Assembly: GCA_021775805.1 (NCBI GenBank)
Contig: JAJFHD010000017.1
Location: 3,142-67,141, forward strand
Direction: 5' to 3'
DNA length: 64,000 bases
Source: Alphaproteobacteria bacterium
GTDB lineage: Bacteria > Pseudomonadota > Alphaproteobacteria > Rhizobiales > JAJFHC01
The notes beneath the pieces are model-generated. The model was not told the DNA's origin. It did not search any database and was given only the letters and a program-made list of their open reading frames with translations. The translations under genes were made by a program, and so were the position numbers. Each line of letters opens with the position of its first letter. Positions within the stretch are counted from its first letter, which is position 1. Shown piece after piece: positions 11,568-12,716 of the stretch.

Positions 11568-12491
11568 CTAAGCAGACATCGCTTTTGATGCCGGCTCTGA
11601 TGGCGGCGGATCATCTGTCTGACGCTGAAGTCGTTGAAAATGGCTCGGTGTCAGCGTGTATGTGGCCTTCCCCTCGGACATGTTAGCCAAGGCGTTCGCG
11701 TATCCAAACATTTGCGCAATCGGCACATGAGCTTCAATGATCATTTTGTCGTTATACGAGCGCGTGCCACGAATCCCGCCCCACCTTTCGTTAAGATCGC
11801 CCAACACATCGCCCATCCAGTTTTCGGGTGTTGTAACTTCGACCAGACCAACCGGTTCAAGCAAAAACGGGGCTGCTTTCTTTGCGGCCTCAAGAAATGC
11901 CAAACGGACAACTTTTCGGACGGCGTTACCGCCTGAGTCTACTTCCTGGTGGGCAACGCCCAACAATGTGACTCTGAGGTCTGTCATTGGGAATCCCGCC
12001 AGGACCCCACGGTCAAGCAACTCATAAATTGCGTTCGTGATTTCTGCGGCGCACCCACTAGGTACGGTATCAAAATTGGTTCCGATCTCGACCTTGCGGC
12101 CTGAACCCGATTCCATCGGTTCCATCAGCAGCCTGATAGCAGGGGACCAGCGTCCATCTTGTGTTTGGTCCACCTCCGCTGGTTTACTGATTGTCTCGCG
12201 ATAGATGACTCGTGGCTCACCGAACAGCAGCCCATTCCCTAGTTTGGCGTCAAAGAGAGCGGCGCTTTGCTCCAACTGCAATTCATTACGGCCCCGTATG
12301 ATCACAGTTTGAGAGTCGTCATCAAGGTGCGCAACAAAGCTAACACTCTCTGAAGACAACTCGTCAACAATCCGTCGGAGTTCAACCTCCGGACTATCCG
12401 ATTTTGATTGAACCGCAAGTTCAACAACGCAATCAATGTCTAGCGGGTCTGACACGCTTTCTGACCAAATCTGTTTTGGGTGACCCAGCAT
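11568..12491 (-). CDS. EF-G-like protein containing only domains III-IV-V (no GTPase domain); possibly a 5'-truncated remnant
   Basis: The [11 protein letters not shown] junction motif and [29 protein letters not shown] (EF-G domain V) are seen. The ORF begins inside domain III. ATG at 12491, TTG at 12497. Confidence 0.6.
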   Translation of the reverse strand: [307 protein letters not shown]

Positions 12492-12716
12492 AGTCAACCG
12501 ATTGTCGGGATTGTAGAGAATTTGATCGGTGAGTAAATTTCTGCCTAACGTTGACTAAAATGCGAAGTCCGAAAGGGGTCAAAAATTCCCTTTATCGCCA
12601 GCCTCCTGGACCGTCTGACAGGCGGTCGACAGCAGACGTCGCCGCCCAAAGGTCAATTATCAGGGGTACAGCAGACCACCTTGAGCGACCACCGGTTGGT
12701 CTGTCGGGTGTCATCT

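What the first reader, a model, noticed from the sequence alone, without database searches (positions are those of the whole stretch)
11568..12716. EF-G paralogue lacking the GTPase domain (domains III-V only), with decayed domain-II traces upstream
The 307/309-aa ORF aligns by eye to EF-G from domain III onward. Matching segments are [26 protein letters not shown].., the [11 protein letters not shown] junction, a shortened domain IV, and domain V ([59 protein letters not shown]). There is no G domain anywhere upstream, and the next gene (sulfotransferase) ends 219 nt away. Reading the same frame upstream past a TAG gives ..LGRNLLTDQILYNPDNRLT, reminiscent of the GDTL..P end of domain II. Another frame gives VQEAGDKGNF (compare E.RAGDI). 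There are two possible readings. (a) It is a 5'-truncated pseudogene fragment that happens to keep an open frame of more than 300 codons. (b) It is a retained ribosome-binding module without GTPase activity, for example a decoy, a ribosome-protection-like factor, or a factor acting with the neighbouring small protein.
Basis: partly seen in the sequence, partly recalled or inferred. Interest (0 to 1): 0.6.

Follow-up and report, generated by a model that had tools for sequence, protein, structure and literature searches.

The report
Natural EF-G lacking its GTPase half
This is an intact gene for a roughly 300-residue protein made only of the back half (domains III-V) of translation factor EF-G plus a private C-terminal tail; it belongs to a family found across Alphaproteobacteria for which I found no published description, and it probably binds the ribosome without using GTP, though that is untested.

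Summary
Window 11568-12497 (-) encodes a 295-309 aa protein with EF-G domains III, IV and V and no G domain or domain II. The claimed "decayed domain-II traces" upstream are chance.

It is not a pseudogene. About 37 database clusters and 65 genomic loci encode 272-312 aa proteins that start at the same point, the domain II/III linker. They end in a shared tail (..DDPP-x-x-P-A-x-[G/A]-[M/L]-R-A) that replaces EF-G's C-terminal helix. The named genomes are almost all Alphaproteobacteria, including Bradyrhizobium, Phenylobacterium, Asticcacaulis, Hyphomonas and Hyphomicrobium.

- No G/II remnant lies upstream in any of 55 loci.
- The strict tail pattern occurs once per genome in five genomes checked.
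- The family nests inside alphaproteobacterial FusA in trees.
- dN/dS against the closest orthologue is 0.23-0.37, with dS above 1.
- Neighbouring genes are not conserved, so the adjacent small protein (DUF7336) is not a partner.

The window copy belongs to the most derived clade. Its domain-IV tip loops and tail are degenerate, and it sits in a low-GC patch of a biofilm MAG.

The function is inferred, not shown. The most likely role is a GTP-independent ligand of the ribosomal factor-binding site. A decoy for EF-G binders is the main rival. I found no curated family and no literature. Expression could not be tested.

The parts
11568..12497 (-). Longest ORF of the GTPase-less EF-G paralogue (309 aa from TTG 12497; ATG at 12491 gives 307 aa; stop codon at 11568-11570)
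11568..12455 (-). Most likely CDS (295 aa from GTG at 12455-12453). This start lines up with the N-termini of all relatives (window MSDPLDIDC.. against MFGPRNIDC.. in the 53% orthologue). Residues 1-19 of the long form are predicted disordered. The start remains uncertain.
12216..12434 (-). Domain III (residues ~22-94 in the 309-aa numbering), divergent
   Evidence: Pfam EFG_III 22.9 bits, below cut-off; aligned to EF-G 407-~480; folded with pLDDT >90
11874..12215 (-). Domain IV (residues 95-208). Tip loop I carries a 5-residue deletion and has lost the GGxGQ[F/Y] motif. In tip loop II the His equivalent to T. thermophilus H573 is Gln.
11619..11864 (-). Domain V (residues 212-293), with LLEP and GDLN.R.G motifs kept
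11571..11618 (-). Family-specific C-terminal tail replacing EF-G's C-terminal helix (window: ..[15 protein letters not shown]; clade consensus ..[15 protein letters not shown]). The window copy deviates at the conserved Arg two residues from the end, which is Ser here.
12510..12537 (-). Single sigma-70-like promoter match (TTTACT-16-TACAAT), no better than chance. No terminator-like site was found.
   Evidence: 1 found; shuffles give mean 1.4
12498..12716 (-). 219-nt spacer to the sulfotransferase gene, with no EF-G domain II or G remnants
9700..13700 (.). Low-GC patch holding four minus-strand genes: hydrolase 10388-11071 (GC 0.475), DUF7336 11197-11439 (0.379), short EF-G (0.527) and sulfotransferase 12717-13496 (0.492). 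The genome average is 0.584. No flanking repeats, tRNA or Rfam element were found.

Best explanation
The ORF is a functional gene for a member of a protein family, apparently undescribed, that I will call 'short EF-G'. The protein is about 295-303 aa and consists of EF-G domains III, IV and V. It starts at the domain II/III linker. Its C-terminal helix is replaced by an acidic, proline-rich linker and a short conserved hydrophobic tail ending ..[M/L]-R-A.

Shown here: the family arose from within alphaproteobacterial fusA by clean loss of the G, G' and II domains. It has since evolved faster than fusA but under purifying selection. It is carried alongside a normal fusA, is not part of a conserved operon, and occurs as one tail-bearing copy per genome in the five genomes checked. 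The window's copy belongs to the most derived clade and sits in a low-GC patch.

Inferred: that low-GC patch suggests the window copy arrived by horizontal transfer.

Inferred mechanism: the protein docks where EF-G's C-terminal half docks on the ribosome, with domain IV toward the 30S A site and domain V on the L11-stalk base, without GTP. It thereby competes with EF-G, other translational GTPases or A-site ligands, acting as a translation modulator, parking factor or protection factor. The tail would serve as a protein-protein handle or a stability tag.

My odds are about 0.9 for the identity and 'real, selected gene' part, and about 0.4-0.5 for the ribosome-ligand mechanism. For the window's own clade, with its degenerate tip loops, decoding-centre contact is less likely than for the Bradyrhizobium-type members.
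For: Architecture: Pfam and NCBIfam find domains III-V only, and the fold matches EF-G III-V.

Family:
- An exhaustive HMMER search lists many 272-312 aa proteins aligned end to end; the best are 301, 298, 299 and 300 aa at 54, 41, 43 and 40% identity.
- 37 cluster representatives carry the tail. None of the 36 full-length EF-Gs among the proteins fetched in the two searches does.
- The genes are complete on long contigs of 47-98 kb, with intergenic DNA upstream.
- A tail-plus-stop DNA pattern found 72 loci in species-representative genomes. 65 of them hold an EF-G III-V gene, and nearly all are Alphaproteobacteria. 37 intact genes are 289-311 aa long.
- No FusA N-half similarity lies upstream in 55 loci.
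- The tail pattern occurs exactly once in each of 5 genomes, four of them titled as complete or chromosome-level, with 0 hits in the reversed control.

Selection: dN/dS against the 53% orthologue is 0.23 (NG86) and 0.37 (YN00), with dS 1.0-1.5.

Origin: 56 of 60 short forms make one pure clade. 58 of 60 lie inside the clade spanned by 19 alphaproteobacterial FusA (SH-aLRT 91). A single origin is not rejected (AU p 0.10).

Ribosome link (indirect): the domain-IV tip motifs, which in EF-G contact the decoding centre (established knowledge), are still kept in many members. GGxGQ[F/Y] is kept in 28 of 82 and HxxDS in 52 of 82, some identical to canonical (HKKQTGGSGQF, YHDVDS).

An isolated III-V fragment is known to fold like the full-length protein (EF-GC3, PMC4725979; PDB 2MZW hit).

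The genome keeps a canonical fusA and an EF-G2-like gene.
Against: - No experiment or expression data exist. No RNA run is listed for this MAG.
- A III-V module lacks the G domain and domain II, which provide much of EF-G's ribosome affinity (established knowledge), so binding may be weak or need a partner.
- The window clade has lost tip loop I, has Gln at the H573-equivalent position, and has a deviant tail. Its own activity may therefore differ or be decaying.
- No conserved neighbourhood or known stress-promoter motif hints at a physiological role.
- The maximum-likelihood tree does not recover strict monophyly (5 changes).
Confidence: 0.55

Rival explanations
1. Off-ribosome decoy or sponge. 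The free III-V module binds and titrates proteins or small molecules that target EF-G's C-terminal half, protecting the essential full-length EF-G. Candidates are FusB-type EF-G-binding proteins, toxins that modify the domain-IV tip, and antibiotics whose pocket involves domains III/V such as argyrin or fusidic acid.
For: - An engineered S. aureus III-V fragment binds FusB with affinity comparable to full-length EF-G (PMC4725979).
- Solved ribosome complexes show EF-G trapped by argyrin B (PDB 7ug7 and 7otc among the fold matches).
- Sporadic distribution, variable context and a low-GC patch in the window fit an accessory or conflict gene.
- Fast evolution of the surface loops.
Against: - No hits to known defence-system models, and none of the strict-tail pattern in viral contigs.
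- No linked toxin, immunity or biosynthetic genes recur.
- Much of the fusidic-acid pocket is formed by the G domain and domain II (established knowledge), which are missing.
- The conserved private tail is not explained by a simple decoy role.
Confidence: 0.15
2. The family is real, but the window's own copy is a relaxed or decaying member that was recently transferred and is no longer doing the family's job.
For: - The window tail has Ser where 73 of 82 members have Arg, two residues from the end, and unusual Ser and Lys at positions 6 and 5 from the end.
- It has a 5-residue deletion in tip loop I and Gln at the H573-equivalent position.
- EFG_III scores below the Pfam cut-off, and it gives the weakest score to the EF-G model (158 bits against 231-352 for other members).
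- It lies in a low-GC patch, and there is no convincing Shine-Dalgarno sequence or promoter.
- Frameshifted copies exist elsewhere in the family.
Against: - The frame is open for 295-309 codons.
- dN/dS is 0.23-0.37 against an orthologue at dS >= 1.
- Its clade mates (P0002, P0059, P0060) share the loop losses, so these are clade features rather than private damage.
- The model folds with high confidence.
Confidence: 0.15
3. A 5'-truncated pseudogene fragment of an ordinary fusA that remains open by chance.
For: No G domain and no clear ribosome-binding site or promoter.
Against: - The same truncation point and a shared novel tail appear in more than 100 independent sequences.
- There is purifying selection.
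- There are no upstream remnants here or in 55 other loci.
- The closest relatives are short forms, not full-length EF-G.
Confidence: 0.03
4. One half of a split EF-G. The III-V protein assembles with a separately encoded G-G'-II protein to rebuild a GTPase factor.
For: In principle the N- and C-terminal halves of EF-G behave as separate structural blocks (established knowledge). The tail could be a docking peptide.
Against: - The genome's GTP_EFTU matches have open-frame lengths that fit FusA, EF-Tu, TypA, an RF3-like protein, IF2, an EF-G2-like protein and Der/Era-type GTPases. These are assignments by length, not checked. Except for FusA, TypA and EF-G2, these assignments were not checked, and the 409-residue frame taken as EF-Tu is the size a G-G'-II half would have, so an orphan half is unlikely but not excluded.
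- No such gene lies within 1.5 kb upstream in 55 loci, and no conserved neighbour exists.
Confidence: 0.03

Closest known systems
Canonical elongation factor G (FusA; TIGR00484), C-terminal half
   Same: Domains III, IV and V are homologous and align collinearly: 38.6% identity to the genome's own FusA residues 411-690 and about 33% to T. thermophilus EF-G 407-684. The fold is the same. The family branches from within alphaproteobacterial FusA.
   Different: There is no G, G' or II domain, so no GTP binding, no contact with the sarcin-ricin loop and no bL12 recruitment. The C-terminal helix is replaced by a Pro/Asp-rich linker and the ..PA-x-G-M-R-A tail. Evolution is faster. In the window clade the domain-IV tip loops are degenerate.
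EF-GC3, the engineered S. aureus EF-G fragment of domains III-V (PDB 2MZW; Tomlinson et al. 2016, PMC4725979)
   Same: Same domain content and almost the same length (301 residues). It was shown to fold like the corresponding part of full-length EF-G and to bind FusB with comparable affinity.
   Different: It is a laboratory construct, not a natural gene. It keeps the normal EF-G C-terminus and has no special tail.
Engineered EF-G lacking only the G domain (Borowski, Rodnina and Wintermeyer, PNAS 1996; cited from memory, the paper could not be fetched)
   Same: A GTPase-less EF-G that, as I recall, still acted on ribosomes, promoting movement of the 3' end of peptidyl-tRNA. This is a precedent that EF-G parts can work without GTP.
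   Different: That construct retained domain II. It is not natural, and I could not verify its details here.
EF-G paralogues EF-G2, spdEFG1/2 and gcEFG2 (Atkinson 2015, PMC4342817)
   Same: They are duplicates of fusA with diverged and partly unknown functions, and they also occur in Alphaproteobacteria, including Bradyrhizobium.
   Different: All are full-length GTPases. That survey was built on the G domain, so a G-less paralogue could not appear in it. The window genome has such an EF-G2-like gene separately.
Ribosomal protection proteins Tet(M)/Tet(O)
   Same: They are EF-G-derived factors whose domain IV reaches the decoding centre. The match is weak (77 bits to the tet_protect model).
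   Different: These proteins keep the GTPase, and the score here is far below the cut-off (775). Nothing points to tetracycline protection.

Membership tests
Canonical EF-G (fusA, TIGR00484) | N-terminal translational GTPase domain (Pfam GTP_EFTU) and domain II (GTP_EFTU_D2) | tested here: not met
   No such Pfam hit at E <= 0.1. The own FusA N-half finds nothing in window 10000-14500.
Canonical EF-G (fusA, TIGR00484) | Domains III, IV and V (EFG_III, EFG_IV, EFG_C) in order | tested here: met
   EFG_IV scores 60.8 bits and EFG_C 70.9 bits. EFG_III scores 22.9 bits, below the cut-off of 27, but is supported by the EF-G model alignment from position ~402 and by the fold.
Canonical EF-G (fusA, TIGR00484) | Whole-protein score above the curated cut-off (659.4 bits) | tested here: not met
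   157.8 bits.
Canonical EF-G (fusA, TIGR00484) | Domain-IV tip loops (GGxGQ[F/Y]; YH-x-VDS with the H573/H583 His) that contact the decoding centre | tested here: not met
   In the window protein, loop I is deleted or diverged and the His-equivalent is Gln. The loops are kept in 28 of 82 and 52 of 82 family members.
Short EF-G family defined in this report (domains III-V plus tail) | Length about 270-312 aa, beginning about 5-15 residues before domain III, with nothing EF-G-like upstream | tested here: met
   295 aa from the GTG that aligns with the family's N-termini. No upstream remnants.
Short EF-G family defined in this report (domains III-V plus tail) | C-terminal tail ..D-D-P-P-x-x-P-A-x-[A/G]-[L/M]-R-A at the very C-terminus | tested here: inconclusive
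   The window has ..[15 protein letters not shown]. The acidic/Pro linker, E-P-A, M and the terminal A are present, but the near-invariant Arg is Ser.
Short EF-G family defined in this report (domains III-V plus tail) | Phylogenetic placement inside the short-form clade when the tail and N-terminal columns are removed | tested here: met
   It groups with P0002, P0059 and P0060 (SH-aLRT 99) inside a 10-11-member all-short clade (95-98) and the 56-member short clade.
Ribosomal protection proteins (Tet(M)/Tet(O); NF012153) | Full-length GTPase architecture and a score above 775 bits | tested here: not met
   77.1 bits, C-terminal part only.
Pseudogene | Frame disruptions, or neutral evolution (dN/dS about 1) relative to intact relatives | tested here: not met
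   Open frame. dN/dS 0.23-0.37 at dS 1.0-1.5.
Known anti-phage defence components (PADLOC) | Match to a defence-system protein model | tested here: not met
   No hit for this protein or its three neighbours.

The most novel reading that the evidence does not exclude
Short EF-G is a new class of GTP-independent ribosome factor. It would be a natural 'headless' EF-G, widespread in Alphaproteobacteria including Bradyrhizobium and the Caulobacterales. It would occupy the factor-binding site and A site to park, protect or tune ribosomes, with its private C-terminal tail acting as the switch by docking to a partner or controlling turnover.
Probability: 0.35. Interest if true: 0.8.

Novelty: new variant of a known kind. 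Interest (0 to 1): 0.65.

Why it matters
All EF-G relatives described in the sources I could read (EF-G, EF-G2, LepA, BipA, RF3, Tet(M)-type proteins) keep the GTPase, and surveys of the family are built on that domain. A conserved G-less branch would therefore have been invisible to them.

A natural, selected EF-G without its motor asks a clean question: what can domains III-V do on, or off, the ribosome by themselves? The family occurs in culturable, genetically tractable bacteria such as Bradyrhizobium diazoefficiens, Phenylobacterium and Asticcacaulis, so the question is directly testable. The outcome could add a new kind of translation regulator, hibernation factor or protection factor, or a decoy against EF-G-targeting agents. 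For annotation, these genes are currently labelled 'elongation factor G' or left unnamed, which is misleading.

Tried and rejected
- **Domain-II or G remnants upstream:** none.
- **G003:C11 'fragment with stops':** this turned out to be the canonical fusA locus of a draft genome with frameshifts, and is irrelevant.
- **Conserved neighbours:** clustering of ORFs within 3 kb either side across 61 loci found no family in more than 8 loci.
- **Ribosomal-protein adjacency:** L31 or S21 lies directly upstream in only 2 loci and in none of the others, so this is not general.
- **Window neighbours:** DUF7336, the sulfotransferase and the hydrolase are never found beside other members.
- **Family-specific profile search:** an HMM of the family does not separate short forms from canonical EF-G by score. 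A 31-position tail profile run over 401 genomes of the class mostly hit canonical fusA at profile positions 1-18. Among the 150 matches listed, only the window's own gene covered the tail, and 151 matches were not listed. That sample includes one unpublished genome, G080, which contributed only a canonical fusA-type match.
- **Other collection scans:** A tail-pattern scan of viral contigs gave 0 hits. The '[9 protein letters not shown]-stop' pattern in metagenome contigs gave 32 hits, none in an EF-G-like gene, so all are chance.
- **Known promoter or operator motifs** (EcfG, RpoH, RpoN, FixK, CtrA, sigma-70) upstream of 55 loci: no enrichment.
- **Rfam, tRNA and flanking repeats around the low-GC patch:** nothing.
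- **PADLOC:** nothing.
- **RNA evidence:** no RNA holder is listed. The only holders are four DNA runs from one biofilm metagenome study.
- **Complex prediction:** a Bradyrhizobium short EF-G with the bL12 C-terminal domain gave no verdict and no support.
- **Literature:** eight full-text searches found no description of a natural G-less EF-G (with reads 64, 97, 98). The 1996 Borowski paper could not be fetched.
- **Tail docking:** in two AlphaFold models the tail stays at low confidence (pLDDT 48-76). It is therefore not supported as a firmly docked cap on the exposed domain surface.
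Full report
**1. What is in the window**

The minus-strand ORF 11568..12497 translates to 309 aa from TTG. An ATG two codons in gives 307 aa, and a GTG at 12455 gives 295 aa.

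- Pfam finds EFG_IV (residues 95-208, 60.8 bits), EFG_C (212-293, 70.9 bits) and a sub-threshold EFG_III (24-76, 22.9 bits against a cut-off of 27). It finds no GTP_EFTU or domain II.
- NCBIfam EF-G models align only from their position ~402 to ~676. The total score is 158 bits, far below the 659-bit cut-off.
- T. thermophilus EF-G aligns over residues 407-684.
- An AlphaFold model (mean pLDDT 85, pTM 0.78) matches free EF-G crystal structures with query TM-score 0.77-0.80 and E about 1e-31. It matches ribosome-bound EF-G less well, at about 0.62.

The core observation is therefore correct.

**2. The 'domain II traces' are not real**

The quoted peptides can be read in the 219-nt spacer. However, tblastn of this genome's own full-length FusA against window 10000-14500 gives a single significant match: FusA 411-690, 38.6% identity, E 2e-52. 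Every other hit, including all those in the spacer, has E >= 0.07, and those in the spacer are non-collinear. The same holds for the whole family. In the 1.5 kb upstream of 55 related loci, the FusA N-terminal half finds nothing at E <= 0.01.

**3. It is one member of a family, not a one-off fragment**

A word-indexed search found a 301-aa protein, P0002, at 53% identity. P0002 begins at the same place as the window protein and lies on a contig with 319 nt of non-coding DNA upstream.

The exhaustive HMMER search over 1.8 billion cluster representatives listed many 272-312 aa proteins aligned end to end. The top hits are 301, 298, 299 and 300 aa long at 54, 41, 43 and 40% identity, whereas ordinary EF-G reaches 33-40%.

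Reading the termini showed that 37 of these representatives share a tail that none of the 36 full-length EF-Gs among the proteins fetched in the two searches has. The tail is an Asp/Pro-rich linker followed by P-A-x-[A/G]-[L/M]-R-A at the very C-terminus, for example ..DDPPFRPAIGMRA or ..[15 protein letters not shown]. The window protein ends ..[15 protein letters not shown]. The tail replaces the last helix of EF-G.

Family N-termini line up with Val15 of the long window ORF. That residue is encoded by a GTG, so the 295-aa form is the most likely product. Residues 1-19 of the long form are predicted disordered.

The genes are complete and free-standing on long contigs of 47, 51 and 98 kb.

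**4. Who has it**

A DNA pattern for '[F/Y]-x-P-A-[I/V/M]-G-M-R-A-stop' scanned over one genome per prokaryotic species returned 72 loci. Of these, 65 carry an EF-G III-V gene ending in that tail, and 37 intact genes are 289-311 aa long.

The record titles are almost all Alphaproteobacteria:
- many Bradyrhizobium species (diazoefficiens, betae, lablabi, jicamae, cytisi, rifense, uaiense, glycinis);
- Phenylobacterium and Asticcacaulis;
- Hyphomonas and other Hyphomonadaceae;
- Hyphomicrobium, Rhizomicrobium and Reyranella;
- Stellaceae, Dongiaceae, Rhodospirillales, Methylobacteriaceae and Xanthobacteraceae.

The single Pedobacter locus has no EF-G-like gene and is a chance match.

A looser form of the tail pattern (P-A-x-G-M-R-A-stop) occurs exactly once in each of five genomes, four of them titled as complete or chromosome-level, and never in the reversed control. 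Under that pattern the tail is private to this protein, with one copy per genome.

Among the window's own relatives the gene is rare:
- Of 40 genomes from the same family or order, one has a short form (G030, 296 aa, tail ..PPPAVAAYG).
- In an even sample of 400 genomes of the class, among the 150 matches listed only the window's own gene matched the tail part of a tail profile; 151 matches were not listed. One genome of that sample, G080, is unpublished and contributed only a canonical fusA-type match.

The tail pattern gave no hits in viral contigs, and there were no PADLOC hits.

**5. Origin and selection**

Trees were built on the III-V core with the tail and N-terminal columns removed.

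- The window protein sits in a 4-member clade with P0002, P0059 and P0060 (SH-aLRT 99), inside larger all-short clades.
- With 60 short forms, 19 alphaproteobacterial FusA and 19 other full-length EF-Gs, 56 short forms make one pure clade.
- 58 of the 60 fall inside the clade spanned by alphaproteobacterial FusA (support 91).
- Strict monophyly is not recovered (5 changes) but is not rejected by the AU test (p 0.10).

Given the shared truncation point and the shared novel tail, a single origin from an alphaproteobacterial fusA is the most economical reading. Short forms have longer branches than FusA (0.6-1.3 against about 0.2 for the genome's own FusA).

Against its 53% orthologue, the window gene has dN/dS 0.23 (NG86) or 0.37 (YN00) at dS 1.0-1.5, with the frame intact. 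That is purifying selection, though relaxed compared with what is usual for fusA.

Three loci carry a single frameshift: a MAG, B. diazoefficiens SZCCT0423 and B. betae P42. These are either real decay or sequencing error.

**6. Context**

The window gene lies in a low-GC patch at about 9.7-13.7 kb. The genes there have GC of 0.38-0.53, against 0.584 for the genome. Its neighbours are an alpha/beta hydrolase, an 80-aa DUF7336 protein and a sulfotransferase, all on the minus strand. No repeats, tRNA or Rfam elements mark the borders.

None of these neighbours recurs next to other family members. Across 61 loci, no neighbouring gene family is shared by more than 8.

Two loci have a ribosomal protein gene (L31 or S21) directly upstream, but this does not generalise.

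The genome keeps a normal fusA, an EF-G2-like gene and typA. It shows no clear orphan G-II half that could complement a split factor, although the GTPase assignments were made by length.

The genome is a MAG, and the only sequencing runs that hold this stretch come from one biofilm metagenome study. No RNA run is listed, so expression could not be examined.

**7. How it probably works (inference)**

What domains III-V do in EF-G is established. Domain IV reaches into the 30S A site, and its tip loops touch the codon-anticodon helix. Domain V sits on the L11-stalk base. Domain III touches uS12.

An isolated III-V fragment is known to fold like the native protein (EF-GC3, PMC4725979). As I recall without being able to fetch the paper, an EF-G lacking only its G domain still acted on ribosomes (Borowski et al. 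1996).

Many family members still carry canonical tip-loop motifs. GGxGQ[F/Y] is present in 28 of 82 and HxxDS in 52 of 82, and some are identical to FusA (HKKQTGGSGQF, YHDVDS). These motifs have no known role away from the decoding centre. Their survival in a G-less paralogue is my main argument that the family still visits the ribosome.

I therefore favour a GTP-independent ligand of the factor-binding site that competes with EF-G, other translational GTPases or A-site ligands. It could modulate, park or protect ribosomes.

The tail is an acidic, proline-rich linker, then a short helix, then a free carboxylate. In two models it is predicted with low to moderate confidence (pLDDT 48-76). It looks like a short linear motif for a partner or a stability signal rather than a fixed cap. 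Its partner is unknown.

In the window's clade, loop I is deleted or diverged, the H573-equivalent is Gln, and the tail Arg is Ser in the window copy. This clade may have drifted to a different use or be under relaxed constraint.

The main rival is an off-ribosome decoy for EF-G-binding proteins or compounds. The FusB/EF-GC3 precedent and the accessory-gene behaviour support it, but no linked genes do.

**8. Comparison and novelty**

No Pfam or NCBIfam model is dedicated to the family; every member tested hits EF-G models below their cut-offs. Database names are 'elongation factor G' or none. Eight full-text searches and three targeted reads found no description of a natural G-less EF-G. The reference survey of translational GTPases is built on the G domain and could not have seen it. 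The literature library is incomplete, so prior description cannot be excluded.

I class this as a new variant of a known kind: an EF-G paralogue that has lost its motor and gained a private tail.

My composition figures agree with it.

Noticed in passing
window 9700-13700: A low-GC patch holds four minus-strand genes of unrelated families: an alpha/beta hydrolase, DUF7336, the short EF-G and a Sulfotransfer_3 protein. Their GC is 0.38-0.53, against 0.584 for the genome. No integrase, tRNA or flanking repeats were found.
   Followed up: partly
window 7965-9653 (+): A 562-aa ORF has TPR-like repeats in its N-terminal half. Its C-terminal half carries a ..PRSGSTL.. motif reminiscent of sulfotransferases, which would make it a second sulfotransferase-like gene 3 kb from the one at 12717-13496. 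This was read by eye only.
   Followed up: no
L019-L021 (gene at 6001-6912 of L019) and L018 (6001-6906): In two metagenomic lineages the short EF-G gene lies directly downstream, on the same strand, of a ribosomal protein gene: L31 with a 113-nt gap, and S21 with a ~200-280-nt gap. This was not seen in the other loci.
   Followed up: yes
L101, L103 (B. diazoefficiens SZCCT0423), L110 (B. betae P42): These short EF-G genes have one frameshift between domain III and domain IV. This may be real inactivation, a sequencing indel or, less likely, programmed frameshifting.
   Followed up: partly
P0115 (222 aa), P0119 (278 aa): Some database members are even shorter. P0115 starts exactly at the domain IV 'GxPQVA[F/Y]RE' junction and keeps the tail, so it has domains IV-V plus the tail only. 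I did not check whether these are true starts or truncated gene calls.
   Followed up: no
L053 (G003:C11:59000-66560): The canonical fusA locus of a same-family draft genome reads in three frames. The first 125 residues are 97.6% identical to the window genome's FusA, and the later pieces are 49-64% identical. This looks like a misassembly or chimera at a contig end.
   Followed up: partly
six loci: L001, L006, L007, L018, L019, L052: In five of the six contexts the short EF-G gene has a lower GC than its surrounding locus, for example 0.522 against 0.599 in L018. This may reflect the gene's history or weak codon adaptation.
   Followed up: no
window 9697-10314 (-): A 205-aa Cys-rich ORF sits at the edge of the low-GC patch. 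It was not analysed.
   Followed up: no
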